Virus record (IMG/VR): IMGVR_UViG_2609459797_000007
Reading direction: 5' to 3' (one strand)
Source: a virus
Taxonomy: Duplodnaviria > Heunggongvirae > Uroviricota > Caudoviricetes
Length of the DNA stretch: 33,237 nt
This document shows, one piece after another, positions 12,962-33,237 of this stretch. Each line of letters opens with the position of its first letter. Position 1 is the stretch's first letter. The notes beneath the pieces are model-generated. The model did no database searches and was not told where the DNA came from. It saw only the letters and a program-made list of their open reading frames with translations. A program made the position numbers and the translations under genes.

Positions 12962-12988
12962 TGTGGGCTTTCTCTGACAACTAAAACG
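12962..12988. promoter_or_regulatory. Late promoter element: TGT-N12-ACA dyad (12962-12979) within the conserved 18-mer TCTCTGACAACTAAAACG (12971-12988), in the divergent P/O region
   Basis: TGT-N12-ACA is the established binding element for the Ogr family at P2 late promoters. The same 18-mer recurs at 30614-30631. Confidence 0.6.
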
Positions 12989-15001: not shown

Positions 15002-15044
15002 CTGAAATTGCGGGCGTATATGCGCCCGCCACCAGGAGACTCAA

Positions 15045-15866: not shown

Positions 15867-15963
15867 CGACTTCGGCCCCGACCGACAGGAGGCACGCGCG
15901 GAGATCTGCCCGTAACTGGTCTTTTCACCGCGTGTCCACCTCCTGACTTTTTAAGGAGCGCTC

Positions 15964-17845: not shown

Positions 17846-18017
17846 AACGCCCACGCCAGCACTGAAAACGCCGGTGACGTGGGGGGGTATTGCAATTTGG
17901 GCCGATCAGTTACATGACGCCCTTGATACCTGCAATGCGGATAAAAGTGATATCCGGGCGTTAAATCTTTTGCGCCTGGCGCGCCAGAAAGGAGTGAAAC
18001 CACATGCTGAAAATTAA
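17727..18017 (+). CDS. lysC: Rz1-like outer-membrane lipoprotein spanin (LysC), partly embedded in lysB in another frame
   Basis: Signal peptide with lipobox (LLLLLLSLMGC), Pro-rich mature region, overlaps the 3' part of lysB. Confidence 0.7.
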   Translation: MMIRVPVLLLLLLSLMGCSEKVRVQTRLIHEPIPESLTNETPTPALKTPVTWGGIAIWADQLHDALDTCNADKSDIRALNLLRLARQKGVKPHAEN

Positions 18018-19672: not shown

Positions 19673-20037
19673 CGGCGAAATATACGGGAATGAACCAGGG
19701 CGGTACAGGGACGGTTTCGGATAGCGATCACCTGTGGCAATCCATGAAAGATATCTTACTGACGCCGCTGGGGTCGCGCGTGATGCGCCGTACGTATGGC
19801 AGCCTGTTACCTGACTTGCTGGACGCCCCGAAAAACGAAACAACGCGCCTTCAGCTAATGAGCGCCACGGTGATTGCGCTGACGCAATGGGAACCACGGA
19901 TAGCACTTAACCAGGTCGATATTACGTATTCAGACGCCGGGGCCGTGACGGTTGAGTTAAGTGGATTGGTTACTTCAACGATGCAGCCGGTAAGAGGCGC
20001 GGTAAAAGTGAAGGAGTCAGGCAATGGCGACCGTTGA
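19669..20037 (+). CDS. W: Baseplate wedge protein W (gp25-like)
   Basis: 122-aa ORF; size and synteny match P2 W. Confidence 0.8.
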   Translation: MTAKYTGMNQGGTGTVSDSDHLWQSMKDILLTPLGSRVMRRTYGSLLPDLLDAPKNETTRLQLMSATVIALTQWEPRIALNQVDITYSDAGAVTVELSGLVTSTMQPVRGAVKVKESGNGDR

Positions 20038-20917
20038 TTTATCAGAACTCCCACCACCGGAGATTATCGCGACGCTGGATTATGAAACCATTCTGAGTGA
20101 AGTGAAAGTGGTGATCATTGCTGCGTACCCGGAAGACATGCAACCGGCAATAGCAGCGGCAATGGCGCTGGAGTCAGAGCCCCTGAATGTGATCGCTCAG
20201 GTGATTGCGTATCGTGAATTGATGTTGCGACAGGTCATTAATGATGGCGCTGCGGCTTGCATGTTAAGCCATGCCACAGGCAACGATCTGGATAACCTGG
20301 CGGCAAATAACGACACAGAGCGCCTGACCGTTATTGAAGAAACAGATACAACGGATGCGGTAATGGAAAGTGATGCCGCGCTACGTATGCGTGCGCAATC
20401 CGCATTTGAAGGGTTAAGCGTTGCCGGGCCAACCGGTGCTTACGAGTACTTCGCAAAAAGCGCGTCGGGAAAGGTTGCTGATGTTAAGGCATCAAGTCCG
20501 GCACCGGCTGAAGTTGTCGTTTCGGTGCTCTCTGCTGAGGGTGACGGAACGGCTTCAGACGAGCTGATCGCAACGGTCAACGCAAAGCTATCAGACGAGA
20601 GTGTCCGCCCCGTTGGTGACCGGCTGACAGTCCAGAGCGCTGAGATTATCAGTTATGACATCAATGTAACGCTGTATCTCTACCCAGGCCCAGAGTCAGA
20701 ACCCATTGTGAACGCTGCTGAGGCGTCATTGCAGAAGTGGCTCAAAAGCCAGTGGCGAATCGGGCTTGATGTTGCCAGGTCTGCAATTATGGCGGCGTTA
20801 CACGTGCAGGGTGTGCAGCGAGTGGAACTGGATCTACCTGAACGGCTGATTATCAGCGATACACAGGCGGCGCGGTGTGCTTCGGTCACCATCACGAGAG
20901 GTGGAACCGATGAATAA
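20024..20917 (+). CDS. J: Baseplate protein J
   Basis: 297-aa ORF; size matches P2 J (about 300 aa); synteny. Confidence 0.85.
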   Translation: MATVDLSELPPPEIIATLDYETILSEVKVVIIAAYPEDMQPAIAAAMALESEPLNVIAQVIAYRELMLRQVINDGAAACMLSHATGNDLDNLAANNDTERLTVIEETDTTDAVMESDAALRMRAQSAFEGLSVAGPTGAYEYFAKSASGKVADVKASSPAPAEVVVSVLSAEGDGTASDELIATVNAKLSDESVRPVGDRLTVQSAEIISYDINVTLYLYPGPESEPIVNAAEASLQKWLKSQWRIGLDVARSAIMAALHVQGVQRVELDLPERLIISDTQAARCASVTITRGGTDE

Positions 20918-21524
20918 CAGTCTGTTGCCACCTTCAGCCAGTGATTTTATGCGCGGTGCAGAGGCCGCAACATGGCGCGTGAGTGGTTTACCCGTAGGCC
21001 TGAAAACGTTGTGGAACCCTGATGAATGCCCGGTTGCTTTACTGCCTTATCTGGCTTGGGCGTTATCGGTTGATCGCTGGGATAAAGGCTGGTCAGAACA
21101 GACAAAGCGACAGGTGATTAAATCCGCCTGGCTGGTACACAGGCAAAAGGGAACTATCGCGGCGCTGCGCCGTGTCGTTGAGCCGTTCGGCTTCCTGATA
21201 AAGGTCGTTGAATGGTGGCAGAACGGAGGCGAGCGGGGAACATTTCAACTTGAAATTGGTGTTTCTGATTCAGGGATTACAGAAGAAACCTATCTCGAGC
21301 TTGAGCGTCTGATCGCTGATGCAAAACCATGCTCACGGCACCTGACCGGCCTTGCTATCAGTCTGCAGACTAAGGGGGCAGCATATGCGCATGCCGGATG
21401 TTATAGCGGCGACGTGATGACAATTTTTCCCTATATGCCTGAAGCCGTAGAAGTCAGTGGCGGGGATTTTTCAGGTGGCGCAATTCACATTATTGATACG
21501 TTAGAGGTAACAAATGGCGGCTAA
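20910..21524 (+). CDS. I: Baseplate/tail protein I
   Basis: About 204-aa ORF; its ATG at 20910 overlaps the J stop; synteny. Confidence 0.8.
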   Translation: MNNSLLPPSASDFMRGAEAATWRVSGLPVGLKTLWNPDECPVALLPYLAWALSVDRWDKGWSEQTKRQVIKSAWLVHRQKGTIAALRRVVEPFGFLIKVVEWWQNGGERGTFQLEIGVSDSGITEETYLELERLIADAKPCSRHLTGLAISLQTKGAAYAHAGCYSGDVMTIFPYMPEAVEVSGGDFSGGAIHIIDTLEVTNGG

Positions 21525-22824
21525 ATTCTTTGCCCTGCTGACTAATCAGGGGGCGGCAAAATTATCAAATATGGCTGCATTGGGTGAGAAGTTAGAAATC
21601 ACCTCGCTCGCAGTTGGTGATGGCGGCGGTACATCACCAACACCAAATCAGGCACAGACAAGGCTGGTTAATGAGGTACGCCGTGCCCAGATTAACTCAC
21701 TGTCAGTGGACGAAAAAAACGATAGTCAGATTATTGCTGAACAGATTATTCCTGAATCCGTTGGCGGGTGGTGGATTCGGGAGATCGGACTCTTTGACGC
21801 TGATGGCATCTTGATTGCTGTAGCCAACTGCCCGGAAACCTATAAAGCGACAACAGAGGAAGGGTCGGGGCGTACACAGGTTATCAGAATGATGCTGACG
21901 GTATCGAGTACAGACGCCGTTACCCTTAAAGTTGATCCTTCAATTGTGCTGGCAACCCGCCAGTATGTTGATAACGCTGTCATTGAAGTGAAGAACTACG
22001 CTGATGGACTCATGCGCAGCCACGAACAGTCGCGCAACCATCCTGATGCAACCACTACGGCTAAAGGTTTTACGCAGCTTAACAGCAGTGTGACGGATGA
22101 CCGCGATACACAATCGGCAACCCCGAAAGCCGTAAAAATTGCGATGGATAACGCGAATGCGCGGTTGGCTAAAGATCGCAATCTCGCCGATTTACCTAAC
22201 CCGGCACTGGCGCGCCAGAATATGCAATTAGGTGATAGCTCGACGAAAAACACCGGTACAACTGCCAATACTGTTGCAGCGGGTGATGATGCACGTATCA
22301 CCGGATCGATGCAGAAAAGCCAAAACGGTGCGGATATTCCAGACGTGGCGAAGTTTCTCCAAAACCTTCGTTTAGGAGCGGGCGCTCCGCCGATAGGAAT
22401 TCCGTTCTTCTGGCCGTCGACTGCAATGCCTAATACGGTTATGGATGAGTGGTCGGATATGGTCTTTTTGAAATGGAATGGCGCAACCTTCTCAGCGACT
22501 GAATACCCTAAACTGGCAAGGATTATTCCAGGACTGAAATTAAATGATGTGCGAGGCGAGTTCCTGCGTATTTGGGATGATGGAAGGGGCGTAGATAACG
22601 GAAGGGGGTTACTCAGCTTTCAGGCAGCAACATCTTTCACACAGTATGCTGGTAACTATGACGTAGGCTCCGGTCATGCAATAGGTAATCATGATGGTGT
22701 AGTCGATTACAGTCCTGGATTTTCCAGATTTCCTTATCCCGGCCCAGCTATTGGTGATGGTGTTAACCATGTAACCGTAAGACCACGTAACATCGCATTT
22801 AACTTTTTAGTAAGGGCTAAATAA
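21514..22824 (+). CDS. H: Tail fibre protein H: constant N-terminal part fused to the currently expressed variable C-terminus
   Basis: 436-aa ORF following I. A recombination site lies inside it (22348-22371), so the C-terminal ~150 aa are part of an invertible segment. Confidence 0.85.
   Translation: MAAKFFALLTNQGAAKLSNMAALGEKLEITSLAVGDGGGTSPTPNQAQTRLVNEVRRAQINSLSVDEKNDSQIIAEQIIPESVGGWWIREIGLFDADGILIAVANCPETYKATTEEGSGRTQVIRMMLTVSSTDAVTLKVDPSIVLATRQYVDNAVIEVKNYADGLMRSHEQSRNHPDATTTAKGFTQLNSSVTDDRDTQSATPKAVKIAMDNANARLAKDRNLADLPNPALARQNMQLGDSSTKNTGTTANTVAAGDDARITGSMQKSQNGADIPDVAKFLQNLRLGAGAPPIGIPFFWPSTAMPNTVMDEWSDMVFLKWNGATFSATEYPKLARIIPGLKLNDVRGEFLRIWDDGRGVDNGRGLLSFQAATSFTQYAGNYDVGSGHAIGNHDGVVDYSPGFSRFPYPGPAIGDGVNHVTVRPRNIAFNFLVRAK
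22348..22371. repeat. Left inversion crossover site (hix/gix-like): TTCTCCAAAACC-TT-CGTTTAGGAG
   Basis: Quasi-palindromic 24-26 bp site inside H; matches the right site at 24161-24185 with a complementary central dinucleotide. Confidence 0.65.
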
Positions 22825-23417
22825 TGACAGTCATTTTCGATAAAGACGGGCTGGCTGTTGAAGCCGGAAGTATTCGTGTTTATTACTTTCATCCTGTGAC
22901 AAAGGAATATGTAGGATGGTCTGACGAATTCATTAATATCGGAGTGAGTATGCCAGGTAACTCTACTAATATTGCTCCGGGGAATGAAGTGGCAGGAGAG
23001 GTTATGGTATTTACAGGAAAAGACTGGAAGCGACAAAAAGACCACCGGGGGGAGACTGTCTGGTCTACTGATGACGGTAGCGCCATCACCGTGAACTACA
23101 TTGGCTCTGTTCATGATGGATACACTAATATTGCGCCATCCACCCCCTACGATAAGTGGGACGGGGAAAAGTGGGTAACGGATACCAAAGCCCAGCACGC
23201 GGCAGATAAAGAAGTAGCAAAACAACAACAGCAATCTCTGATAGATTCAGCAATGGCATCAATCGGCATGATACAGCTTAAATTACAGGCAGGGCGTAAA
23301 TTAACCACTGCTGAAACTACGAGGCTAAATTCTGTTCTGGACTACATTGACGCGGTGGAGGCAACTGATACCAGCACCGCGCCAGATATTAAGTGGCCTC
23401 TTCCCCCGGAGTGGTAG
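22824..23417 (+). CDS. G: Tail fibre assembly (chaperone) protein G, active orientation
   Basis: 197-aa ORF immediately after H; its 3' end converges and overlaps with the alternative chaperone gene on the other strand, as in Mu-type G segments. Confidence 0.8.
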   Translation: MTVIFDKDGLAVEAGSIRVYYFHPVTKEYVGWSDEFINIGVSMPGNSTNIAPGNEVAGEVMVFTGKDWKRQKDHRGETVWSTDDGSAITVNYIGSVHDGYTNIAPSTPYDKWDGEKWVTDTKAQHAADKEVAKQQQQSLIDSAMASIGMIQLKLQAGRKLTTAETTRLNSVLDYIDAVEATDTSTAPDIKWPLPPEW

Positions 23418-23814
23418 GCCAAACGGGTTTTTCGGTATCGACTCGCATCAGTAATACCCTGTATTTTTTCCATTCTGACAAAGCGGCGGTTTCTTCTTCC
23501 GTCGCTACTCCTGCATCAACAGCATCCTGACGCCAGTTAATCTCTGAGTCAGCCCGCATACGTAAGTTGGCCTTTCTTAATTCAGCGACAGCGCTAAGTT
23601 CTTCCTGAGTTGGTGGTGGAATATCTACCCATGCTGGCATTCCTGCTATTACATTTCTGTATTTACCTTCGGGTGGCTCCTGCATGAATTCAGTTGCAAC
23701 AGAGTCTTCTATTTCTATTCCATCGTTTGGCCACTCTCCTGCCTTTTGATAGGACGACTTCAGCTCTACAGGAAAGAAAGCATTTTTCTTGGCACTGAAT
23801 ACATATTTTTGCAT
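23389..23814 (-). CDS. Alternative tail fibre assembly protein (G'), silent orientation within the invertible segment
   Basis: 141-aa ORF on the opposite strand; its start follows the stop of the alternative fibre C-terminus (23816). Confidence 0.7.
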   Translation of the reverse strand: MQKYVFSAKKNAFFPVELKSSYQKAGEWPNDGIEIEDSVATEFMQEPPEGKYRNVIAGMPAWVDIPPPTQEELSAVAELRKANLRMRADSEINWRQDAVDAGVATEEETAALSEWKKYRVLLMRVDTEKPVWPTTPGEEAT

Positions 23815-23815
23815 G

Positions 23816-24172
23816 TTAACGTCCTATAGAAATATAACTAAATCGGTATTGCTGAGAATTGTCACTCGTTGATACACGCCATGACGAATTGCTGATATGT
23901 TCAAAATTTACAGAAAGTACAGGCGTAATCGGTCCAGAAGGATTTGACTGGACGGCATCAGACATGACGCTGATAGAAATCAAGGGTTGAGTCGGAAACG
24001 GTATAGGGAAGTTACCGCTGATAAAACGAGTCGTGTTTCCTGAATATGTACCAAACTGCACAATGTGCCCGCTTGGTAATTTGAACCACCCTGTGCCAGA
24101 TGCAAAAGCGCCCATATCCGGTATCTGATTTGCACCTGTCCCCACCTCTCTTTTTGCTGCTTCTTTCAAACC
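23816..24172 (-). CDS. Alternative tail fibre C-terminal cassette (H'), promoterless and start-less, expressed only after inversion
   Basis: Open frame from the right recombination site down to a stop at 23816, encoding ...GANQIPDMGAFASGTGWFKLPSGHIVQFGTYSGNTTRF.... The junction sequence parallels the H junction (FLQN versus FLNV). Confidence 0.65.
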   Translation of the reverse strand, partial: GLKEAAKREVGTGANQIPDMGAFASGTGWFKLPSGHIVQFGTYSGNTTRFISGNFPIPFPTQPLISISVMSDAVQSNPSGPITPVLSVNFEHISNSSWRVSTSDNSQQYRFSYISIGR

Positions 24173-24185
24173 AACGTTTAAGAAA
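24161..24185. repeat. Right inversion crossover site (hix/gix-like): TTCTTTCAAACC-AA-CGTTTAAGAAA
   Basis: Resembles hixL (TTCTTGAAAACCAAGGTTTTTGATAA) as I recall it. Located about 55 bp upstream of the invertase start codon. Confidence 0.65.
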
Positions 24186-24240
24186 ATGCAGATTTGCACC
24201 CTGGCTGGCATCATTCCGGCTTTTGCATGAGGGAAAGCAA

Positions 24241-24810
24241 ATGCAGGTTGGCTATGTACGCGTATCAACAAATGACCAAAACACTGCATTACAGCGTGAC
24301 GCGCTGGAGCGCTCAGGATGTAAGCTGATATTTGAAGATAAAATAAGCGGCAAAACGTCAGATAGACCGGGGCTGAAGAAATTATTAAAAAGCCTGTCTC
24401 CAGGGGACACGCTTGTTGTTTGGAAGCTGGATCGGCTTGGACGAAGTATGCGGCACCTGGTTGTACTTGTGGAGGAGTTGCGCCAGCGATCGGTAAATTT
24501 CCAAAGCCTGACGGATAGTATTGATACATCAACTCCTATGGGGCGCTTTTTCTTTCATGTTATGGGGGCGCTAGCTGAAATGGAGCGTGAATTGATTGTT
24601 GAGAGGACGCGAGCGGGCCTGAAGACTGCCAGAGAGCAGGGGAGGATTGGCGGGCGTCGCCCAAAGCTATCTGATGATCAGTGGGCGCAAGCGGGGCGGT
24701 TGATTGCTGCCGGTGAGACTCGCCAGCGGGTTGCCTTGCTTTTTGATGTCGGGATATCGACGTTATACAAAAAATTCCCCGCCACGGTGAGGGTTGAGGC
24801 GGGGAAATGA
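24241..24810 (+). CDS. Serine DNA invertase (Hin/Gin/Cin/Pin family)
   Basis: N-terminal MQVGYVRVSTNDQN (catalytic Ser), GDTLVVWKLDRLGRS and a C-terminal HTH. Start taken at the internal ATG 24241; the track's 24100 start would run through the crossover site. Confidence 0.9.
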   Translation: MQVGYVRVSTNDQNTALQRDALERSGCKLIFEDKISGKTSDRPGLKKLLKSLSPGDTLVVWKLDRLGRSMRHLVVLVEELRQRSVNFQSLTDSIDTSTPMGRFFFHVMGALAEMERELIVERTRAGLKTAREQGRIGGRRPKLSDDQWAQAGRLIAAGETRQRVALLFDVGISTLYKKFPATVRVEAGK

Positions 24811-24829
24811 AAGCCAGTAATGCAGTTGT

Positions 24830-25318
24830 TTAGAACAGGCTTGATGCGGCAGCGCTGATATTATTCAGCGCTGAGTTGGCTGTGTTTTGTAGGTTGCCGA
24901 GTAGGTCACTCACTGATGAAGACTGGAGGCTTTCGCGCAGGTCTTCATCTTGCCTTTGAAACGTGATCGTAAACTCTATTTTCTTCGGCTCCCCATACTG
25001 GTCAAATTCAGTATCGGTGGTCTGAAGCTGTGTTATCGAATACATGCCATATATCCGCCCGGTGCCGCTGATAAGAGGCCAGGGGCGTCCGGTGTATGCC
25101 TGTGTATCGAGCACAGTTAGACTCACCTTACCGCCGGTCACTGATGGGTACAAAACGCCGGATAGTGTGATTTGATCGTCACCCGCGCCAATGTATTGCC
25201 ACTTTGCCGATCGGTTTATGCGTTCGTTCTTCACATGCCGCCAGGTCTTTGACTGCTGCAACTGTTGGTGGGGAACGGTTTTTAACTCAAAGACGAACAT
25301 TCCGTAAACCATCATCAT
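24830..25318 (-). CDS. U: Tail protein U
   Basis: 162-aa ORF; MMMVYGMFVFELKTVPHQ...GVLYPSVTGGK...WPLISGTGRIYGMY agrees closely with my memory of P2 gpU (MMLALGMFVF...GVLYPELTGGK...WPLLDGTGMIYGMY). Confidence 0.85.
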   Translation of the reverse strand: MMMVYGMFVFELKTVPHQQLQQSKTWRHVKNERINRSAKWQYIGAGDDQITLSGVLYPSVTGGKVSLTVLDTQAYTGRPWPLISGTGRIYGMYSITQLQTTDTEFDQYGEPKKIEFTITFQRQDEDLRESLQSSSVSDLLGNLQNTANSALNNISAAASSLF

Positions 25319-25330
25319 TGTTTTGCTCTC

Positions 25331-28300
25331 CTAATCTTTGTCTCTGAAACTGCTACCAGAGCGGGAACGTTTGTTTAGTTCCGCCCCAACTGCATCAGCC
25401 ACCATCCGTGCAATGTCGCGGGCGTCGTTGCTGAGATTGCCGTGCATATGAATGTGAATATGCATTTCATCAGGCGCGGTGTTTTGCGCCGGTTTGCTGG
25501 CTTGTTTACTGGATTGCCCGCCAATAGCCTGTACTTCAGCCGCCGGTTTAATCGGTGCTGATGCCGCTGCGATAACCGGGCGCGCGCTAAGTTGGGCCAG
25601 GTTAGCGCCTGGGGCGGATTGCGCTTCCTGCCATGCGCCGTGGACGGCTAATGCGCGGGGCAGATTTTTAAACACAATATCGCCGGGGCCGATCCGCTTT
25701 TTGGTTTCATCCAGCATCCCGCCGGTGTTGTCGGCAATTTTCTGTAACCGCCGTTGCGTTCCTGTATCAGCGGCAATTACTGGTGATGGTGGGGTGGAGG
25801 CGGCTGGTTTATCGTCACTTTTTGGTGACCAGTTCCATTCCTTTTTCACCATCTTTTTCTGTTTGTCGTCCCATTCCCACGCTACCGGCTCTTTTGTCAG
25901 TGCCTGAGCTTTTGCGTGTGCCGCGTCGATGCCGTCAGGGATGATGTCCAGCTTTTTCAGTATCCAGATGATCATGTTAGCCAGCCCGGTCAGAGGCAGC
26001 ATTAGTCCCTGAATTGCCAGGCCAAGCACTTTGCCGAACGTCTCCCCAGCGCTTGCGCATTTATCAAGCGTCTCTTTGCTGGTTGTCATTGGTGAAAGCA
26101 GGTTGCTGAACCACTGCCACAACTGAGAAACGGCATTTGAGATCACATCAAAGACGGGGGCCAGTCCGGCGAAGGCATCACGGAACGGCGTAAGCGCCTG
26201 CATTACACCGGCAAAGAAGCCCGCAAAGAAGGCTTTGATCGGCTCCCAGAATCGCCAGATAAGCAACCCTGTGGCAATGAAGGCCGCGCCAATCAGCCCG
26301 ATCGGGCTTAACAGCAATGACAGTGCACCGCCGAGCACTGAGAGGGCCGAGCTAGCGATCCCCATGATTGCAGGTATACCGGTCAGGCGGAGCAGGAGAC
26401 TAGAAAGCCCTTTTACAATTCCTCCCAAGGCGGCACCTGGCGAGATAAACGCGGCGGCAAGCAGCCCGCGCAATGGGGCAAGCGCGCCAGCCAGTTTTCC
26501 GGCGTTGCCGGTCATGCTACTGAAGACAATGCCCCAGCCACGGACGCCGCCAAGCGGCCCGGATATAACGCCAGACAGGCGGCTGAAAAGTGTCACCGCG
26601 CCACCCAGCCCGCTCCCGCTGGTTAGCAGGGCAAAGCCGAGTTGAAGTTTTGCCAGTGGCCCCAGAAGTAAGCCAATAGCCAGGGATGTTGCGCCAATCC
26701 CGGCGGTAAGGGCCAGCGCACTCCCGCCAACAGCCAGAAGGGTTTTTGATAGCTGCGGATTCTTATTTGCCCATTCAGTCATCACGCCGATCGTGCCGGT
26801 CAGTGCCTGGGTGAGTTTCCGAAGTGCGCCGTCCGCCAGTTCTTCAATCTGGATACGGAATGCTTCCCAGGCGCTATCGAGTTCTTTTAGATCTCCGCCC
26901 AGGTTGTCCGCCATTTTTTTTGCGACGGTAGCGGATTCACCGGCAGCGCCCTGAAGTTCTTTTGTGAGCTTTTGTAGCTCTCCCGAACCTGCCGCCTGTA
27001 CCAGTGTCTGAAGGCCCACAAAGGCCTCTTCACCGGCGATGTTTTTGAAGAAAGATACCTGATCAACCTGCCCGTATTTCTTCGTGGCTTTGAAAAGGTC
27101 TAACAGTACCGTTTCCATCGGGCGCATTTTCCCGTTGGCGTCGGCAACCGACACGCCTAGCTCTTTCAGAGCATCAGCTGCGGCTTTTGGTGGTGAAGCA
27201 AGGCGGGATAGGCTGGAACGTAATGCTGTACCCGCGTCACTGCCGCGCAGACCGTTATTGGCAAGCATACCCGCCATCGCTGAGGCCTGTTCAAGGCTAA
27301 TCCCCAGATTAGCCGCCACTGGCCCCGCGTATTTCATTGTGTCGCCCAGGGCGCGCAGGTCGGTATTGGTACGGGTAAAAGCGGCGGTTAACGTATCGCC
27401 AACCCTGTCCATCTGATCTGATGACAGCTTGAATTGGGTCAGGATGTTTGAACCGATATCAGCGGATTCACCCAGATCCATGCCACCGGCTAGCGCCATA
27501 TTCAGAACGCCAGGCAACGCGGCCTGAATTGACTGTGGTGTAAAGCCAGCCATTGCTAAGAAGGCTTGCCCGCTGGCGGCGTCTCGCGTGGTAAATGCGG
27601 TTTCAGCGCCAAGTTTTTTGGCCTGGGCGCGGAGGGCGGCAAATTGTTCATCGCCTTTGTCCAGGCGAGTCAGTGCGCCTACGCGCGACATTTCCTCATC
27701 AAAACCAACAGCAGGGGCCAGGAAGCGCCCGGCGGCGTAACCCGCCCCCGCGCTTGCGCCAACTGCCATTGCGCCGCCGGTGCGTAATTTGCCCGCTGTG
27801 GTGCTCAGTCGGTCGTAACGGGCGCGCGCATTGGTCACGGCGGCAAGTTGTCGCCGTTCTCTCTCAAGCGCCTGGTTGTATTGCTCAGTGCGTCTGATGG
27901 CGCTTTGAATTGTGCGATCACCGCCAGCCAGCGAGACGCCGTGCGCGCGCAGTGCCTGGGACGCTTGCTGGAGTTTTGCGGTTTCCTGTGACCGGCTGGC
28001 ATTCAGGCGATCAAGTTTTGCCGCCAGCGCTGTCATGCGCTCGCGCTGCGCGTCGGTCAGAACGGTGCCGGTCTTCTGGGCTTTATTCAGGCCATCAAAA
28101 GCGCGCTGTGTTGTGGTGAGTTGCTGGGCTGTCTTTTTAACGCGCTCATTCAGGCGGTTGAATGCCTGGGATTGCGTTTCCAGATCCTTGATAGAGGACT
28201 GTGTCTTTTTGAGGGATTCTGATAAGCCGCCCACTGAGTTACGAGCGGCATTTACCGGGCGGGTTAACTTATCAATCGCACTGAAGGCGACACGGATATT

Positions 28301-28348
28301 AAGGTCTTTCATCTTCACTGTTTCCGCTTCGGATAGCCGCCCGTTCAC
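25331..28348 (-). CDS. T: Tail tape measure protein T
   Basis: 1005-aa ORF, Ala/Gly-rich with coiled-coil N-terminus and hydrophobic glycine-rich central segments, located between E/E' and U. Longer than P2 T as I recall it (about 815 aa). Confidence 0.85.
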   Translation of the reverse strand: MNGRLSEAETVKMKDLNIRVAFSAIDKLTRPVNAARNSVGGLSESLKKTQSSIKDLETQSQAFNRLNERVKKTAQQLTTTQRAFDGLNKAQKTGTVLTDAQRERMTALAAKLDRLNASRSQETAKLQQASQALRAHGVSLAGGDRTIQSAIRRTEQYNQALERERRQLAAVTNARARYDRLSTTAGKLRTGGAMAVGASAGAGYAAGRFLAPAVGFDEEMSRVGALTRLDKGDEQFAALRAQAKKLGAETAFTTRDAASGQAFLAMAGFTPQSIQAALPGVLNMALAGGMDLGESADIGSNILTQFKLSSDQMDRVGDTLTAAFTRTNTDLRALGDTMKYAGPVAANLGISLEQASAMAGMLANNGLRGSDAGTALRSSLSRLASPPKAAADALKELGVSVADANGKMRPMETVLLDLFKATKKYGQVDQVSFFKNIAGEEAFVGLQTLVQAAGSGELQKLTKELQGAAGESATVAKKMADNLGGDLKELDSAWEAFRIQIEELADGALRKLTQALTGTIGVMTEWANKNPQLSKTLLAVGGSALALTAGIGATSLAIGLLLGPLAKLQLGFALLTSGSGLGGAVTLFSRLSGVISGPLGGVRGWGIVFSSMTGNAGKLAGALAPLRGLLAAAFISPGAALGGIVKGLSSLLLRLTGIPAIMGIASSALSVLGGALSLLLSPIGLIGAAFIATGLLIWRFWEPIKAFFAGFFAGVMQALTPFRDAFAGLAPVFDVISNAVSQLWQWFSNLLSPMTTSKETLDKCASAGETFGKVLGLAIQGLMLPLTGLANMIIWILKKLDIIPDGIDAAHAKAQALTKEPVAWEWDDKQKKMVKKEWNWSPKSDDKPAASTPPSPVIAADTGTQRRLQKIADNTGGMLDETKKRIGPGDIVFKNLPRALAVHGAWQEAQSAPGANLAQLSARPVIAAASAPIKPAAEVQAIGGQSSKQASKPAQNTAPDEMHIHIHMHGNLSNDARDIARMVADAVGAELNKRSRSGSSFRDKD

Positions 28349-28771
28349 GCCAGGCTATCACCTCACTCAGGGACATAGTGAAAACCTCTGAGGGCGGCCA
28401 GTTGAAAATAACTGCAATGTCAGCAACCAGATCATCGATCAGGTCAAAGTGGGGTGCGATTACTCGCTCTCCGTCTCCGTCTCGCTCTTCGTGCCAGGCT
28501 CCTTCGGTGCCAAAAAAGGCGTTAGCACCTCACAAAGTTCAACAAAGTCAGATGTTTCCATTTCGCTGATTTCTTTGAGCTTCAGGCGTGGGGAGGTGCA
28601 GCGGGTTAACAGGGTGCTGATGCTGTCCACGTCCATATTCATGACGTTCACCAGGCGAAGGCCGCGCAGGGTGCCAGCCTGTTTTACTTCGTCAGTAATC
28701 GTGACGGTTTTGATATCTTCGTCGCCACGGGAAATCCAGCGGGTCAGTGTTACGGTGTTTTCTTTGGTCAT
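28299..28771 (-). CDS. Tail assembly chaperone E+E' (programmed -1 frameshift product)
   Basis: E frame 28771..28460; slippery heptamer T TTT TTG on the minus strand at + coordinates 28517..28511, encoding Phe-Leu. The -1 frame stays open from there to a TAA at 28301..28299, overlapping the T start. Confidence 0.6.
28460..28771 (-). CDS. E: Tail assembly chaperone E
   Basis: 103-aa ORF between FII and T; acidic C-terminus; size and position match P2 gpE. Confidence 0.8.
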   Translation of the reverse strand: MTKENTVTLTRWISRGDEDIKTVTITDEVKQAGTLRGLRLVNVMNMDVDSISTLLTRCTSPRLKLKEISEMETSDFVELCEVLTPFLAPKEPGTKSETETESE

Positions 28772-28825
28772 TGTTTTAATCTCCGAGCGGCATCATCACG
28801 ACGCCGCACCTGTAGTGGTTGTTTG

Positions 28826-29338
28826 TTACCCCATGCCCAGCGCAGACATCACGCGGGAAGGGTAAATATTTTCGCCGTTGCGTTTGTAGACGAAGTTAAG
28901 CAAGTCGATTTCCCATAGGGGTTTATCGTCAATTGACAGCTTGTAGTACGTGTTTTTAATGGCGTAGGTCACGGATGTGTCTTCACCCTGTTTGCTTTCG
29001 CCGCCGTCGATTTCAGTGAACTTGCCGCGCATTTCCACATCAACGATCTGGCTCTCGCCAGACGTGTAATACTCCCCGGTAAAGCGGATTAGCGTACCGT
29101 CCAGATCGCCGCCGTACTCCAGAAGTAGAGCCTGAACCAGACCGCCAACAACCATCGTTGCATCAAGTGCGCCGCTATCCAGTCCGAGATCGACGGCAAC
29201 GGAACCAATCATGCCGCCGCCCTGGTAGTCTTCCGTTTTCCGGGTCAGTTTTGGCAGCGTCACAGATGTCACTTTGCCGATATTGTTTACGCTGTTCACG
29301 AAGCAGGTGAACAGCCGCAATTTTGCTGGAATCGCCAT
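28826..29338 (-). CDS. FII: Tail tube protein FII
   Basis: 170-aa ORF directly downstream of the sheath gene; size and synteny match P2 FII. Confidence 0.85.
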   Translation of the reverse strand: MAIPAKLRLFTCFVNSVNNIGKVTSVTLPKLTRKTEDYQGGGMIGSVAVDLGLDSGALDATMVVGGLVQALLLEYGGDLDGTLIRFTGEYYTSGESQIVDVEMRGKFTEIDGGESKQGEDTSVTYAIKNTYYKLSIDDKPLWEIDLLNFVYKRNGENIYPSRVMSALGMG

Positions 29339-30529
29339 TTAGTTACTCCCCAGAGACGAAAACGCGCCTTCAAAATATTCATCGGTGAACGTCTGGATCA
29401 GCGTTAAATCTTCCATCGGCGGTACTGGCGTATACTTGTAACGGATCGCCACTTTTCCCTGAATCAGGTTTGCGGTCGGGTTGTCCACAATGTCAAACCA
29501 CGCCTCCGCGCCAAGCAGCTTGCCAGCGGTCACAAGTGCGCTGAGTTTCTTGTTAATTGCACTCACCACGTCTTTCACGTTGGTTGGGGTAAGTGGCCCG
29601 TCAACGGTTTCAAACTGTGCCTCTGCGATGGTGTCCGCCAGGATTTGCGCCGTACGGGTGTACACCTCAAAAGTAAATTCATTGGTGTCAGTGGTGCGGT
29701 TGCCCCAGAAGCGGAAGCCGTTACGCTTGATGATGGTGGTGATTTCATCGTTGTTCAGCGTCTGGGCGTCGCTGTCTTCAGCCTGGAGCGCCCAGAAAAC
29801 GTCCTTCGACATGCCAAGCACGTTACTGACGGCGATGTTAGACAGAGAACGATGCCAGCCGTATTGGTTGTCAATAAACGCGCGCAGCCCTACCGCATAG
29901 GCTGGGGCGGGAAACTCTTCATTTGCCCCGGACACCTGGTTATAGGCAATGTAGTTAGGCCAGATCAGCATGAGTTCACGTGATGCGAAGGTTTCACGAT
30001 ATTGCCGGGCCTCTGCCAGTGTGTTGCAGCCGTTACAGCCAGCATAAACAAAGGCGCGAAGCTGTTTGGCGATCACGCAAAGCTGTGATGTTACTTCTTC
30101 GGTATCGTATTCCGGCACCGCCAGGACGCGCGGGCGATATCCCGTTTTTTGTTCGGCGGTCAGTAGCGCATACATGCCGGTGTAGTTACCGTCAGCATCA
30201 GAGCCACCAATAATCAACTGCGACTGTGTTTCCGCCGTTTTCCCTTCCTCCGGCGGTTTAGCCGTGGCAACACGAACAACAATGATTTTCGCGCTTGCCT
30301 GGTCTGAAATAGCTTTCAGTGTTTTGTACAACGTCCCTGTTTTCCCTGCCTTGCCGAGCATCGACTGAGGCCGCGTGATAAGCGTTGGGATGTTAAGTGG
30401 GAAAGCGTCTTCGTCTGCGTCATCAGCGACGACAATCACGCCAATGACGCTGGAGTCAATGTCGTTAATTACCCTCGTGATGTCGGTTTCTTCTTTGGTG
30501 CGAGCACCGTGAAAACGTGTCTCAGACAT
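29339..30529 (-). CDS. FI: Contractile tail sheath protein FI
   Basis: About 396-aa ORF; matches my memory of P2 FI along its length (FPLN.P.LIT, GTLY/GTLA, KLRAF, RELM.IWP, GWH.TLSN, GFRFWGNRT, NYTRTAQ..ADT.AEA, KY.YTPVPP.E.LTL). ATG 30529 preferred over 30541. Confidence 0.9.
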   Translation of the reverse strand: MSETRFHGARTKEETDITRVINDIDSSVIGVIVVADDADEDAFPLNIPTLITRPQSMLGKAGKTGTLYKTLKAISDQASAKIIVVRVATAKPPEEGKTAETQSQLIIGGSDADGNYTGMYALLTAEQKTGYRPRVLAVPEYDTEEVTSQLCVIAKQLRAFVYAGCNGCNTLAEARQYRETFASRELMLIWPNYIAYNQVSGANEEFPAPAYAVGLRAFIDNQYGWHRSLSNIAVSNVLGMSKDVFWALQAEDSDAQTLNNDEITTIIKRNGFRFWGNRTTDTNEFTFEVYTRTAQILADTIAEAQFETVDGPLTPTNVKDVVSAINKKLSALVTAGKLLGAEAWFDIVDNPTANLIQGKVAIRYKYTPVPPMEDLTLIQTFTDEYFEGAFSSLGSN

Positions 30530-30604
30530 GTTTGTCACCATTACGTTTTGTTGAGTTCGCCACCATGATTGCTGATTGATGTAACGGCTTCACGCCTTTC
30601 TGGT

Positions 30605-30631
30605 TGTGCTATCTCTCTGACAACTAAAACG
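30605..30631. promoter_or_regulatory. Late promoter element: TGT-N12-ACA dyad (30605-30622) with the same 18-mer TCTCTGACAACTAAAACG (30614-30631), in the divergent FI/D region
   Basis: Exact 18-bp identity with the P/O promoter element at 12971-12988, including the Ogr-type dyad. Confidence 0.6.
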
Positions 30632-30682
30632 AATTCTCCCACGCGCGCCCGCGTGGAATTATTCAGCAAAACGGGAGGGTAT

Positions 30683-31816
30683 ATGAGTGTTTCAGTGATC
30701 AGCAGTATGATTTCGGGCGCGGCTGGCGGTGTCGATGACATCCTGACGGAGGCGTTAAAAATACCAGCATTCAGCGTCCGGCAAGGCGGGAAGGTGTTAA
30801 CAGAATTATCAGATCGCGTGATATCCATCAGCCTGACGGACAACCGGGGTTTTGACGCCGATCAGCTGACATTAGAGCTGGATGACACTGATGGAAGCGT
30901 TGCTCTTCCGCCGCGTGGCGCTGAGTTGTCTTTCTGGCTGGGGTGGATGGGTGAAGCGCTGGTTTATAAGGGCATCTACACGGTTGATGAAGTGGCGCAC
31001 GACGGGCCGCCCGACCGTATCACCGTGACCGCCAGAAGTGCAGATTTCAGAGAGGAGTTTAACGTAAAGCGTGAAGTCTCCTGGCATGATGTGACTGTGG
31101 AGCGGGTTGTGTCTGCTATCGCAAAACGGTATGACCTGACGCCGCAAATCAGCGATCTGTTGATGGATGTGGAAATTGACCATGCCGATCAGACTCAGGA
31201 AAGCGATATGTCATTTCTGACCAGAATGGCGGAAATGTTAGGGGCCATCGCCACGGTAAAAAATGGAAGTCTGCTGTTTATCGTGCCGGGTGGTGGTTTC
31301 ACTGCATCAGGGAAGGCTATTCCGTCGATTGCCATCACGCGCAGCAGTGGAGACCGGCACCGCTTCCGGGTTGCTGATCGTGACGCTTATACCGGCGTCC
31401 GCGCGTACTGGCTTGATCTGAACTACGGGAAAAAGAAAAAGGTTAGCGTTCATCGCCGTGCCACAACGAAAAAAAAGGATAAGAGCAGCAGCAGGGAAGG
31501 TGACTACATTGAAGGCGCTGAAGGTAACGTTTTTATTATGCGTAAAACCTTCCAGAACGAAGAAGCCGCCAGGCGCGCAGCGGCGGCAAAGTGGCAGCAG
31601 TTACAGCGCGGCGCGGCGGAGTTTTCGATCACCCTGGCGCGCGGGCGTGCGGAGTTGTACCCGGAAATGCATTCGACGGTGACCGGTTTTAAGGCAGATA
31701 TTGACGCCCAGGACTGGATAATCAGCAAGGTACAGCATGACGTTGATAGCAACGGATTTACTACACAGCTTAACTTTGAAGCAAAAATATCTGACTGGAT
31801 CGCAGAAACTGAATAG
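30683..31816 (+). CDS. D: Tail protein D (late gene D)
   Basis: About 377-aa ORF preceding ogr. ATG 30683 with a GGGAGGG RBS. Size and position match P2 D. Confidence 0.8.
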   Translation: MSVSVISSMISGAAGGVDDILTEALKIPAFSVRQGGKVLTELSDRVISISLTDNRGFDADQLTLELDDTDGSVALPPRGAELSFWLGWMGEALVYKGIYTVDEVAHDGPPDRITVTARSADFREEFNVKREVSWHDVTVERVVSAIAKRYDLTPQISDLLMDVEIDHADQTQESDMSFLTRMAEMLGAIATVKNGSLLFIVPGGGFTASGKAIPSIAITRSSGDRHRFRVADRDAYTGVRAYWLDLNYGKKKKVSVHRRATTKKKDKSSSREGDYIEGAEGNVFIMRKTFQNEEAARRAAAAKWQQLQRGAAEFSITLARGRAELYPEMHSTVTGFKADIDAQDWIISKVQHDVDSNGFTTQLNFEAKISDWIAETE

Positions 31817-31854
31817 AATGGCGATGAGTTCAACTCCCCAGGGGAGTCACCATT

Positions 31855-32109
31855 ATGTTCAGATGCCCACATTGCGGCGCTACGGCCCGCACACGTACCA
31901 GTAAGCCACTAAACGAAGAGCAAACCATATACAGGCAGTATCACCAGTGCCAGAACATGGAATGCGGATTGTCATTCACCACGCTTAACAGCGTTGAAAA
32001 GATAGTCACTAAACGTGAGCGCCGCGAAGAGTTATCCCCTGATTTTATCCCTGCCGGTGTTTTTCCTGCCTCGCATTACGGACGCGATCAGCTAAATTTA
32101 GCGATATAA
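31855..32109 (+). CDS. ogr: Late transcription activator Ogr (zinc-finger)
   Basis: 84-aa ORF with CPHCG...CQNMECG (C-x2-C...C-x4-C); MFRCPHCGATARTRTSK is the typical Ogr/delta N-terminus. Last prophage gene before the host junction. Confidence 0.9.
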   Translation: MFRCPHCGATARTRTSKPLNEEQTIYRQYHQCQNMECGLSFTTLNSVEKIVTKRERREELSPDFIPAGVFPASHYGRDQLNLAI

Positions 32110-32113
32110 TGAA

Positions 32114-32139
32114 GGCCCCGCAGACGCGGGGCTTTTTTT
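32114..32139 (+). terminator. Rho-independent terminator after ogr (GCCCCGC-agac-GCGGGGC followed by T7)
   Basis: GC stem and 7-T run read directly, 5 nt after the ogr stop. Confidence 0.8.
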
Positions 32140-32225
32140 CGATGTGGACGATGTGTGGACATCATATGAAATAAATCCTTTTGTTTCATGAAGTTATGGC
32201 GATAAATAAATCACCATCCCTGTCT

Positions 32226-32254
32226 TCCCCCACATGATGTGGGGGGTTTTTTTA
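32226..32254 (+). terminator. Second hairpin plus T-run (CCCCCACAT-g-ATGTGGGGG followed by T7), probably host-side and upstream of the fieF promoter
   Basis: Palindrome and T-run read directly. Lies in the prophage/host junction interval. Confidence 0.55.
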
Positions 32255-32334
32255 TCCTCAATTTGCCTGCTGCTTAATGCATTGCAGATGATTTGCTTCC
32301 ATTATACTAGCGTCAGTTGATAGCGGGAGTATTT

Positions 32335-33237
32335 ATGAATCAATCTTATGGACGGCTGGTCAGTCGGGCGGCGATTGCTGCGACGGCGATGGCTTCGCTG
32401 CTATTGCTGATTAAAATTTTTGCATGGTGGTATACCGGGTCGGTGAGTATTCTCGCCGCGCTGGTGGATTCGCTGGTGGATATCGGCGCGTCGTTGACGA
32501 ATTTATTGGTGGTGCGATATTCCCTGCAACCTGCCGACGATAATCACTCGTTTGGTCACGGTAAAGCTGAGTCCCTCGCGGCGCTGGCGCAAAGTATGTT
32601 TATCTCCGGTTCGGCACTATTCCTGTTTTTGACGGGTATTCAACATCTGATATCTCCAACACCGATGACAGATCCAGGCGTCGGGGTTATCGTGACAATT
32701 GTGGCGCTAATTTGTACGATTATCCTTGTCTCGTTTCAGCGTTGGGTGGTGCGGCGGACGCAAAGCCAGGCGGTGCGGGCTGATATGCTACATTACCAGT
32801 CTGATGTTATGATGAACGGCGCAATTCTGCTGGCGCTGGGGTTGTCCTGGTACGGCTGGCATCGCGCCGATGCTCTGTTTGCATTGGGAATCGGCATCTA
32901 TATTTTATATAGCGCGTTACGCATGGGATATGAGGCGGTACAGTCATTACTGGATCGCGCATTGCCTGATGAGGAACGGCAAGAAATTATTGATATCGTG
33001 ACTTCCTGGCCGGGTGTTAGCGGCGCTCACGATCTTCGCACGCGGCAGTCAGGGCCGACCCGCTTTATTCAGATTCATTTGGAAATGGAAGACTCTCTGC
33101 CTTTGGTTCAGGCACATATGGTGGCGGATCAGGTAGAGCAGGCTATTTTACGGCGTTTTCCGGGATCGGATGTAATTATCCATCAGGACCCCTGTTCCGT
33201 CGTACCCAGGGAGGGTAAACGGTCTATGCTTTCATAA
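32335..33237 (+). CDS. fieF: Cation-efflux pump FieF/YiiP (cation diffusion facilitator family); host chromosomal gene
   Basis: About 300-aa ORF; the translation ([58 protein letters not shown]...) matches enterobacterial FieF as I recall it. Multiple TM helices and a C-terminal cytoplasmic domain. Start taken at ATG 32335. Confidence 0.9.

What the first reader, a model, noticed from the sequence alone, without database searches (positions are those of the whole stretch)
24830..30683. Tail sheath-to-U block (FI-FII-E/E'-T-U) is on the opposite strand relative to H/G and D/ogr
In P2 as I recall it, FI, FII, E, T, U and D form one rightward operon after the tail-fibre genes. Here FI to U is encoded leftward, while D and ogr remain rightward, so D is separated from its usual operon and has its own divergent late promoter element. 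This implies an ancestral inversion of about 5.7 kb with breakpoints near the invertase 3' end (about 24811-24829) and in the FI/D intergenic region (30530-30682).
Basis: partly seen in the sequence, partly recalled or inferred. Interest (0 to 1): 0.5.

Follow-up and report, generated by a model that had tools for sequence, protein, structure and literature searches.

The report
Lineage-typical inverted tail-gene block in P2-like prophage
The tail sheath-to-U gene block of this P2-like prophage really does point the opposite way from phage P2, but this old, fixed inversion is the normal gene order of a large group of related phages (including published phages P88 and phiT5282H), so it is ordinary.

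Summary
U, T, E/E', FII and FI (24830-30541) lie on the minus strand. H/G/invertase on the left and D/ogr on the right lie on the plus strand.

It is not an assembly artefact. An independent Kluyvera genome contig and several metagenome contigs align across both junctions.

It is not unusual either. Of 124 related loci surveyed, 74 have the same arrangement, including phages P88, phiT5282H, KSP20, 3LV2017, ST16-OXA48phi5.4 and SEN4/5. The other 50 (P2, 186, Fels-2, Pantoea, Erwinia and Paraburkholderia prophages) are collinear. Neighbour-joining trees of FI, FII, U and D each separate the two arrangements with a single split. That fits one ancient inversion inherited by an Enterobacterales sub-lineage of Peduoviridae.

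The neighbouring invertase is incidental. Many relatives with the inverted block lack it. Its crossover sites flank only the tail-fibre segment (22355-24186), and the block never varies in orientation among close relatives.

The inversion carried the FI late promoter next to D. One TGT-N12-ACA dyad (30605-30622) sits midway between FI and D, with -10-like hexamers at mirror positions on either side. This geometry is conserved across the clade and resembles the shared-site divergent P/O late promoters of P2. I infer, without experimental test, a bidirectional Ogr-dependent promoter. Interest is low.

The parts
22355..22380 (.). Left crossover site of the invertible tail-fibre segment, inside H. 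Context only; not a boundary of the FI-U block.
   Evidence: Core AAACCTTCGTTT at 22362-22373. In relative L008 the homology flips orientation from 22354 onward.
24161..24186 (.). Right crossover site of the invertible tail-fibre segment, upstream of the invertase gene.
   Evidence: TTCTTTCAAACCAACGTTTAAGAAAA read, with core at 24168-24179. Collinear homology with relatives resumes at 24160-24167.
24241..24810 (+). Serine DNA invertase (Gin/Hin/Cin type), an accessory gene lying next to the left end of the block.
   Evidence: Pfam Resolvase 4.2e-50 plus HTH_7 3.2e-12. Start codon read. No tblastn match to the invertase in many inverted-arrangement relatives.
24830..25318 (-). Gene U (tail protein). 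Its stop codon marks the left end of the inverted block.
   Evidence: Pfam Phage_P2_GpU 1.8e-39. In invertase-less relatives L007, L010, L013 and L014, homology to the window begins at 24826-24830.
25331..28312 (-). Gene T (tape measure). The ORF is open up to 28348, but the likely start is the ATG at 28312 (MKDLNIRV...).
   Evidence: Pfam PhageMin_Tail 1.3e-56. ORF and sequence.
28299..28771 (-). Gene E (28460-28771) plus the E' extension in the -1 frame, which runs to 28299 and overlaps the T start as in P2.
   Evidence: Pfam Phage_TAC_7 9e-6. Downstream frame read. The frameshift itself is inferred from the P2 annotation.
28826..29338 (-). Gene FII (tail tube).
   Evidence: Pfam Phage_tube 6.5e-45.
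29339..30529 (-). Gene FI (tail sheath). The ORF is open to 30541, but the likely start is the ATG at 30529 (MSETRFHG), which has a Shine-Dalgarno-like sequence.
   Evidence: Pfam sheath domains. The alignment consensus starts MSETRFHG. The SD-preceded ATG lies 80.5-88.5 nt from the dyad centre across the clade.
30565..30570 (-). -10-like hexamer AATCAT of the inferred FI late promoter. It lies at positions 44-49 from the dyad centre. Predicted transcription start is near 30558.
   Evidence: Sequence. The clade consensus gATTAT/AATCAT sits at the same position, followed by a conserved CGAACTCAA.
30605..30622 (.). TGT-N12-ACA dyad (TGTGCTATCTCTCTGACA), the inferred Ogr binding site shared by divergent FI and D promoters. 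Its centre is at 30613.5.
   Evidence: Present at a constant position in 65 of 66 distinct intergenic sequences with the inverted arrangement, allowing TCT for TGT. The flanking 17-mer CTCTGACAACTAAAACG occurs only here and at the P/O dyad.
30637..30662 (+). GC-rich palindrome/(CG)n tract (30637-30658) followed by an extended -10-like TGgAATTAT (30654-30662) of the inferred D promoter. The hexamer lies at positions 44-49 from the dyad centre. Predicted start is near 30669.
   Evidence: Sequence. Consensus CGCGCGCGCg TGgAAtCAT across 40 distinct sequences. A similar CCCACGCGCGC lies on the P side of the P/O region.
30683..31816 (+). Gene D (baseplate hub/tail protein), separated from the FI-U operon.
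   Evidence: Pfam Phage_GPD 4.2e-18. The ATG has GGGAGGG upstream.
31855..32109 (+). ogr (late-gene activator, zinc finger).
   Evidence: Pfam Ogr_Delta 5.4e-16.
32115..32139 (+). Hairpin GCCCCGCAGACGCGGGGC followed by TTTTTTT. Probable terminator of the D-ogr unit.
   Evidence: P2 annotates a terminator at the same position for ogr and the F operon.
12962..12979 (.). Internal comparison: the dyad of the divergent P/O late promoters (TGTGGGCTTTCTCTGACA). Its centre is 73.5 nt from the P ATG and 83.5 nt from the O ATG.

Best explanation
The window is a P2-like (Peduoviridae) prophage, probably of Kluyvera, integrated next to a fieF-like gene.

**Origin of the arrangement.** Its FI-FII-E/E'-T-U block, together with the FI late promoter, was inverted once in an ancestor of a large Enterobacterales sub-lineage, and the inversion has been inherited since. 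It is a fixed gene order, not a switch and not an artefact. The invertase next to it belongs to the separate tail-fibre switching cassette (22355-24186), which happens to sit in the variable region at the left end of the block.

**Consequence for expression (inferred).** The inversion placed the FI promoter region back to back with D, which in P2 is the last gene of the F operon. D is now expressed from a promoter on the other side of the same Ogr-binding dyad. FI-U leftward and D(-ogr) rightward would therefore be driven by one bidirectional, Ogr-dependent late promoter region, built like the shared-site P/O promoters of P2 and 186.

**Shown:** gene identities and orientations; reproducibility across independent assemblies; distribution across relatives; co-segregation with the FI, FII, U and D trees; conserved position of the dyad and hexamers.

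**Inferred:** a single in-situ inversion; that the P2 order is the ancestral one; promoter function and Ogr dependence.
For: **Identities and strands:**

**Same order in annotated phages:** P88 and phiT5282H.

**Opposite, adjacent FI and D in other phage records:** KSP20, P884B11, Chuche, PhiR44_2, 3LV2017, ST16-OXA48phi5.4, the Kp48xx series, 500465-2, Shae_phiSM and SEN4/5.

**Survey:**
- 74 loci inverted and 50 collinear.
- Every locus with FI at least 52% identical to the window is inverted, and every one at 51% or less is collinear.
- Neighbour-joining trees of FI, FII, U and D each have one split that separates the two classes. J and W trees do not.
- Collinear loci are far more diverse (FI down to 32% identity among themselves) than the between-class distance (median 50%). 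The inverted class therefore nests inside collinear diversity.

**Independent assemblies span both junctions:**

**The block is not an invertase substrate:**
- No long inverted repeats at its ends.
- No crossover-site cores at its ends.
- Many inverted-arrangement loci have no invertase.

**Promoter model:**
- There is a single perfect TGT-N12-ACA in the FI/D gap.
- A dyad is found at the same place in 65 of 66 distinct clade sequences.
- The dyad centre lies 80.5-88.5 nt from the FI ATG, against 82.5 in P2 pF, 81.5 in 186 pJ and 81.5 in Fels-2. It lies mostly 67.5-80.5 nt from the D ATG.
- -10-like hexamers sit at positions 44-49 on both sides of the centre, with TGn on the D side. This is conserved although the surrounding sequence has diverged.
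- The P2 record annotates one activator site for both pO and pP, with starts 55-56 nt either side. The 186 record annotates one B site for p12 and pV.
- Smp131 is described with one 18-nt site for its PP' and PO' promoters, and the TGT-N12-ACA consensus is stated there (PMC3931495).
- The 17-mer CTCTGACAACTAAAACG is shared only by the P/O and FI/D dyads.
Against: - No transcription data exist for this phage or any inverted-arrangement relative that I could find. The start sites, Ogr dependence and shared use of the dyad are all inferred.
- On the D side the predicted 5' leader is short (about 12-14 nt).
- A GC-rich palindrome occupies the -30 to -14 region of the inferred D promoter, which could instead be a regulatory or attenuating element.
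- The trees are unrooted neighbour-joining trees built from translated HSPs, so 'single event' and 'P2 order is ancestral' rest on parsimony and diversity arguments.
- The survey is biased toward relatives of the window (the best 80 genome loci out of at least 591 confirmed).
- The ancient breakpoints cannot be located to the nucleotide.
Confidence: 0.85

Rival explanations
1. Assembly artefact: the 5.7-kb block was misoriented during assembly of this viral contig.
For: The block is flanked on the left by a recombination-prone invertible region.
Against: A 150-kb Kluyvera contig aligns as one HSP across 24160-32150. L006, L008, L011 and L035 also span both junctions at 77-89% identity. Complete phage genomes P88 and phiT5282H, and complete chromosomes (L054, L056, L070, L085, among others), have the same order.
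Confidence: 0.01
2. The block is an actively invertible segment, flipped by the adjacent serine invertase acting on secondary sites. Its orientation would then be a phase-variable state.
For: The invertase gene ends 19 nt from the U stop. The invertase appears active on the tail-fibre segment, because L008 carries that segment flipped.
Against: There are no crossover-like cores at 24811-24829 or 30542-30682. The nearest core, with one mismatch, is inside D. No inverted repeats bound the block. All 74 inverted-arrangement loci have the same orientation, and many of them lack an invertase. The opposite orientation would leave D without a promoter-proximal arrangement in this lineage.
Confidence: 0.02
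3. Not an in-situ inversion. An ancestor replaced its FI-U module with a horizontally acquired P2-type tail module that happened to insert in the opposite orientation.
For: P2-like genomes are mosaic. The J and W trees do not follow the inverted/collinear split, whereas FI, FII and U do.
Against: D lies outside the block but shows the same clean split as FI, FII and U, so the whole FI-to-D region shares one history. The FI promoter geometry (dyad to ATG 84.5 nt, against 81.5-82.5 in P2, 186 and Fels-2) is retained. No foreign junction remnants were seen. A simple inversion needs one event.
Confidence: 0.08
4. The polarity is reversed: the divergent FI/D order is ancestral and the P2-type collinear operon is derived.
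For: The trees are unrooted.
Against: Collinear order is found in Paraburkholderia, Stutzerimonas and Celerinatantimonas prophages and in distant IMG/VR contigs. Between-class FI identity (median 50%) is higher than the lowest identity within the collinear class (32%). Inverted-arrangement loci form one clade and all named hosts are Enterobacterales. Phage-collection hits to phiCTX, Ralstonia, Burkholderia and Mannheimia phages fall in the FI identity range (51% or less) where every classified locus was collinear, but I did not check their FI/D orientation directly.
Confidence: 0.04

Closest known systems
Escherichia phage P88 (Xuanwuvirus, NC_026014) and Enterobacter phage phiT5282H (Novemvirus, NC_049429)
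   Same: Same order and strands: V-W-J-I-H-G rightward, U-T-E-FII-FI leftward, D and ogr rightward, with an invertase between G' and U in P88. FI is 69-74% and D 74-77% identical to the window's. Both have a T(G/C)T-N12-ACA dyad at the same place between FI and D.
   Different: Nucleotide similarity is too low for megablast. phiT5282H has no tblastn match to the invertase. The early regions and cargo genes differ. The window's dyad is a perfect TGT-N12-ACA, while theirs begin with TCT.
Bacteriophage P2 and phage 186 F/J operon (FI-FII-E-T-U-D)
   Same: Same seven tail genes plus ogr/B. Same distance from the late-promoter dyad to the FI start (81.5-82.5 nt, against 84.5 here).
   Different: In P2 and 186 all the genes, including D, form one rightward operon from pF/pJ, and the U stop overlaps the D start. 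Here FI-U is inverted and D is a separate unit. FI is only 45-48% identical.
Fels-2 (Felsduovirus, NC_010463)
   Same: It carries an invertible tail-fibre cassette and a Gin/Cin-like invertase between the tail-fibre genes and the tail-sheath block.
   Different: Fels-2 is collinear: invertase, FI, FII, E, T, U, D and ogr all run in one direction. This shows that having the invertase at this position does not imply the inversion.
Divergent pP/pO late promoters of P2 (p12/pV of 186; PP'/PO' of Smp131) with one shared activator site
   Same: One dyad lies between two divergent late genes, roughly 70-95 nt from each start codon. The P2 record places the two transcription starts 55-56 nt either side of the site centre. 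In the window the P/O and FI/D dyads share a 17-mer.
   Different: For FI/D in this lineage the bidirectional use is only inferred. P2 itself has no promoter in front of D.

Membership tests
P2-like (Peduoviridae) contractile-tail module | Homologues of FI (sheath), FII (tube), E/E' chaperone, T (tape measure), U, D and the Ogr/Delta activator. | tested here: met
   All seven match their Pfam families above the gathering score. The E' frame is read.
P2-like (Peduoviridae) contractile-tail module | Canonical P2 operon order: FI-FII-E-T-U-D co-directional and downstream of H-G. | tested here: not met
   FI-U is on the minus strand, with D/ogr and V-G on the plus strand. P2, 186 and Fels-2 are collinear.
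P88/phiT5282H-type sub-lineage (inverted FI-U arrangement) | FI-U block opposite to both V-G and D-ogr. | tested here: met
P88/phiT5282H-type sub-lineage (inverted FI-U arrangement) | FI, FII, U and D proteins fall on the inverted-arrangement side of the single tree split. | tested here: met
   The window (identical to L004) is in the inverted class. FI is at least 52% identical to all inverted-class loci.
P88/phiT5282H-type sub-lineage (inverted FI-U arrangement) | A single late-promoter dyad in the FI/D gap at a conserved distance from both start codons. | tested here: met
Ogr/B/Delta-dependent P2-type late promoter | TGT-N12-ACA element of dyad symmetry upstream of a late gene. | tested here: met
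   30605-30622. The consensus is as stated in PMC3931495.
Ogr/B/Delta-dependent P2-type late promoter | Dyad centred about 55 nt upstream of the transcription start. | not testable with these tools
   No transcript data. The geometry is compatible: -10-like hexamers at positions 44-49 from the centre on both sides, and the dyad-to-FI-ATG distance equals that of P2 pF.
Ogr/B/Delta-dependent P2-type late promoter | Transcription depends on the zinc-finger activator. | not testable with these tools
   An ogr gene is present at 31855-32109. Dependence would need reporter or knockout experiments.
Gin/Hin/Cin/Pin invertible DNA segment (considered for the FI-U block) | Inverted crossover sites at both ends of the segment. 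| tested here: not met
   Crossover cores occur only at 22362-22373 and 24168-24179, which bound the tail-fibre segment. No inverted repeats bound 24830-30541.
Gin/Hin/Cin/Pin invertible DNA segment (considered for the FI-U block) | Both orientations are found among closely related genomes. | tested here: not met
   All 74 inverted-arrangement loci share one orientation. By contrast, the tail-fibre segment is flipped in L008.

The most novel reading that the evidence does not exclude
The inversion turned a unidirectional Ogr-dependent promoter (pF) into a compact bidirectional one. A single symmetric activator site at 30605-30622 would drive FI-U leftward and D-ogr rightward from mirror-positioned -10 elements. 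The D-side core, a (CG)n tract plus TGnAATCAT, resembles the phage's own pP core. This would be a natural example of promoter capture by a palindromic activator site after a rearrangement. As far as I could find in the searchable literature, it has not been described for this sub-lineage.
Probability: 0.55. Interest if true: 0.3.

Novelty: new member of a known kind. Interest (0 to 1): 0.15.

Why it matters
Mainly as a caution. P2 and 186 are not the template for gene order across the whole family. Among the relatives surveyed here (a sample biased toward the window), 74 of 124 loci carry the sheath-to-U block inverted, so annotation or quality-control pipelines should not flag this as a misassembly.

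Two smaller points:
- The arrangement is a clean synapomorphy that could help delimit genera such as Xuanwuvirus and Novemvirus from the collinear genera of P2, 186 and Fels-2.
- The conserved single dyad between FI and D is a testable case of one activator site serving two late promoters.

None of this changes how P2-like tails are thought to be built.

Tried and rejected
- **Megablast of 21000-33237 against the phage collection.** It returned only short matches (KSP20, a Klebsiella record, and the host fieF flank). The phage is too diverged at the DNA level, so I switched to protein-level searches.
- **The Klebsiella record CP052639.** It looked at first like a third arrangement. It contains several partial genes and seems scrambled, so I did not use it as a reference.
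- **Search for inverted repeats and invertase crossover cores at the block ends.** Nothing was found, so invertase-mediated or repeat-mediated recent inversion is rejected.
- **Literature searches.** The P88 paper (PMC5285337) and the 2026 P2-like virus diversity paper (PMC13100340) do not mention inversion, orientation or synteny of this block. The Xenorhabdus tailocin paper discusses only tail-fibre inversions. I found no paper describing the FI-U inversion; the library lacks most subscription journals.
- **First tree script with Biopython distances.** It timed out, so I reran it with my own neighbour-joining code.
- **TGT-N12-ACA count in the whole window.** It is not above chance (5 found, 7.5 expected). 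The motif count alone is not evidence; the argument rests on position, clade conservation and the shared 17-mer.
- **CACGCGCGC enrichment.** Only weakly significant: 3 found, and 6 of 100 shuffles reach 3.

Full report
**What is in the window.** The window is IMG/VR contig IMGVR_UViG_2609460356_000007. It is a complete P2-like prophage with the following layout:
- integrase, 1-981 (-)
- early genes and A, 4570-7011 (+)
- an AT-rich three-gene cargo, 7373-9651 (-)
- Q and P (-)
- O through G, 12999-23417 (+)
- an alternative tail-fibre cassette on the minus strand
- a serine invertase, 24241-24810 (+)
- U, T, E/E', FII and FI, 24830-30541 (-)
- D, 30683-31816 (+)
- ogr, 31855-32109 (+)
- a terminator, then a host fieF-like gene

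A Kluyvera genome carries a sheath protein identical to the window's FI and DNA that is 95.9% identical over window 24160-32150, so the host is probably Kluyvera.

**Checking the observation.** The block is 5712 bp. The invertase stop and the U stop are 19 nt apart. FI and D are divergent, separated by 141-153 nt depending on which FI start codon is used. The more likely FI start is the Shine-Dalgarno-preceded ATG at 30529, because relatives begin with MSETRFHG.

**It is not an artefact.** The Kluyvera contig L050 (150 kb) aligns in a single piece over 24160-32150 at 95.9% identity, crossing both junctions. Metagenome contigs L006, L008, L011 and L035 do the same at 77-89%.

**It is not unusual.**
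- Annotated reference phages P88 (Xuanwuvirus) and phiT5282H (Novemvirus) have the same order and strands.
- Comparing tblastn strands and coordinates for FI and D shows divergent, adjacent FI and D in KSP20, P884B11, Chuche, PhiR44_2, 3LV2017, ST16-OXA48phi5.4, the Kp48xx series, 500465-2, Shae_phiSM and SEN4/SEN5. That covers every listed record in the 60-80% identity band.
- RE2010 and Fels-2 are collinear.
- I then fetched 43 IMG/VR loci and 80 loci from species-representative genomes, and classified them together with the reference phage records already fetched (the Klebsiella record CP052639, phiT5282H, P88, P2, 186 and Fels-2) by tblastn with the window's proteins.
- Of 124 loci that hold both FI and D, 74 have the window's arrangement and 50 the P2 arrangement.
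- The partition is sharp. Every locus whose FI is at least 52% identical to the window's is inverted, and every one at 51% or below is collinear.
- Named hosts of the inverted class are Kluyvera, Enterobacter, Kosakonia, Klebsiella, Raoultella, Citrobacter, Salmonella, Trabulsiella, Yokenella, Serratia, Chania, Erwinia, Pantoea, Mixta, Brenneria, Pectobacterium, Symbiopectobacterium, Photorhabdus, Xenorhabdus, Morganella and Yersinia.
- The survey is biased toward relatives of the window, so 74/124 is not a family-wide frequency. In the phage collection, about 45 of about 540 records with a P2-type sheath fall in the inverted band.

**One event or many?**
- Neighbour-joining trees of FI, FII, U and D each contain a single split that separates all inverted from all collinear loci. 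D lies outside the inverted block, so the whole FI-to-D tail module shares one history.
- The J and W trees do not follow the split, which fits the known mosaicism of the baseplate and tail-fibre region.
- Collinear loci are much more diverse among themselves (FI down to 32% identity, from Paraburkholderia, Stutzerimonas and Celerinatantimonas prophages and distant IMG/VR contigs) than the typical between-class identity (median 50%).
- The inverted class therefore nests inside collinear diversity.
- The most economical reading is one inversion in an ancestor of an Enterobacterales sub-lineage. This is inference, because the trees are unrooted and built from translated HSPs.

**Role of the invertase.** The invertase belongs to a classical tail-fibre switching cassette.
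- The crossover cores are AAACCTTCGTTT (22362-22373, inside H) and AAACCAACGTTT (24168-24179, just upstream of the invertase gene).
- In relative L008 exactly this segment is in the opposite orientation while the flanks are collinear.
- Neither end of the FI-U block has a crossover-like core or an inverted repeat.
- Many inverted-arrangement loci have no invertase at all. In those, homology to the window starts at 24826-24830, the U stop codon.
- Fels-2 has an invertase at the same relative position but is collinear.
- The adjacency of the invertase and the breakpoint is therefore positional coincidence in a variable region. In P2 the same gap holds fun(Z).

**How the rearranged genes are probably expressed.**
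- In P2, D is the last gene of the F operon and its start overlaps the U stop. After the inversion, D has no co-directional upstream gene and must be transcribed from the FI/D gap.
- That gap holds one perfect TGT-N12-ACA (30605-30622). This is the consensus of Ogr-dependent late promoters as stated in PMC3931495.
- The motif count over the whole window is not above chance. The argument rests on context instead:
  1. The 17-mer CTCTGACAACTAAAACG, which covers the right half of the dyad, occurs exactly twice in the window, here and at the P/O dyad. None of 100 shuffles reaches two occurrences.
  2. A T(G/C)T-N12-ACA is present at the same place in 65 of 66 distinct FI/D gaps of the clade, although its internal bases have completely diverged.
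  3. The dyad centre lies 80.5-88.5 nt from the FI ATG throughout the clade. The same measure is 82.5 nt for P2 pF, 81.5 for 186 pJ and 81.5 for Fels-2. The FI promoter therefore travelled with the block.
  4. The centre lies mostly 67.5-80.5 nt from the D ATG.
  5. Anchoring 40-42 distinct sequences on the dyad centre shows -10-like hexamers at positions 44-49 on both sides. On the FI side this is gATTAT/AATCAT followed by a conserved CGAACTCAA. On the D side it is TGnAAtCAT preceded by a conserved (CG)n tract.
- In the window these hexamers are AATCAT (30570-30565, minus strand) and TGgAATTAT (30654-30662, plus strand), exactly mirror-symmetric about 30613.5.
- The P2 record annotates a single activator site for the divergent pO and pP, with starts 55-56 nt either side. 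The 186 record annotates a single B site for p12 and pV.
- I therefore propose that FI/D is a second bidirectional late promoter of this type, with predicted starts near 30558 and 30669. This step is inferred, since no transcript data were available.
- A hairpin plus T-run after ogr (32115-32139) would end the D-ogr unit, as in P2.

**Breakpoints.** The left breakpoint is at the U stop (24826-24830). The right one lies between the dyad and the D start (about 30623-30682), because the FI-side geometry is ancestral and the D-side sequence has no counterpart in collinear phages, where U and D overlap. Greater precision is not possible for an event this old.

**Comparison with what is known, and novelty.** The phage is a new member (FI 74% and D 76.5% identical to the nearest named phage) of a known kind. 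The arrangement is visible in several RefSeq phage genomes. I found no paper that comments on it, and the searchable library is incomplete. The inferred bidirectional FI/D promoter is a modest, testable extension of the P/O precedent. A specialist would not be surprised, so interest is low.

Noticed in passing
window 7373-9651 (minus strand): AT-rich (GC about 32%, against about 53% elsewhere) three-gene cassette between replication gene A and portal gene Q. This is the position where P2 carries old/tin. None of the three proteins (265, 146 and 359 aa) has a Pfam match. Only the first has a weak PADLOC hit to candidate system PDC-S54 (E 1.4e-7). Possibly an uncharacterised defence or cargo module.
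   Followed up: partly
window 22355-24186; locus L008 7918-9169: The tail-fibre invertible segment is bounded by crossover cores at 22362-22373 and 24168-24179. A relative whose flanks are about 89% identical carries it in the opposite orientation, so the invertase switch appears active in this lineage.
   Followed up: partly
window 30637-30662 and 12932-12942: A conserved (CG)n tract or GC palindrome lies immediately upstream of the -10-like element on the D side of the FI/D gap (consensus CGCGCGCGCg TGgAAtCAT in 40 distinct sequences). A very similar CCCACGCGCGC lies on the P side of the P/O gap in the window, phiT5282H and P88. The D-side core promoter looks like the P-side core. Function unknown.
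   Followed up: partly
window 24849-24872: A perfect 9-bp hairpin, CAGCGCTGA-TATTAT-TCAGCGCTG, lies inside the last codons of U, where the rightward H-G-invertase transcripts and the leftward FI-U transcripts converge with only 19 nt between stop codons. Possibly a terminator embedded in coding sequence.
   Followed up: no
L065 (Trabulsiella odontotermitis) and L001 (CP052639, Klebsiella pneumoniae): Two inverted-arrangement relatives show further rearrangements. In L065, I-H-G are flipped relative to the other loci, next to an invertase. L001 has D/ogr relocated beside truncated tail genes.
   Followed up: no
window 18000-18460 (upstream of V): No perfect TGT-N12-ACA, and no copy of the shared 17-mer (up to 3 mismatches), was found upstream of V, although P2 has a late promoter there. 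The V-G operon promoter of this phage was not identified.
   Followed up: no
window 3335-4390 (+) and 32317-33237 (+): A Dam-type N6-adenine methyltransferase sits among the early genes. The right flank is a host fieF-like cation-efflux gene about 83% identical to those of E. coli and Salmonella, which marks the integration site.
   Followed up: no
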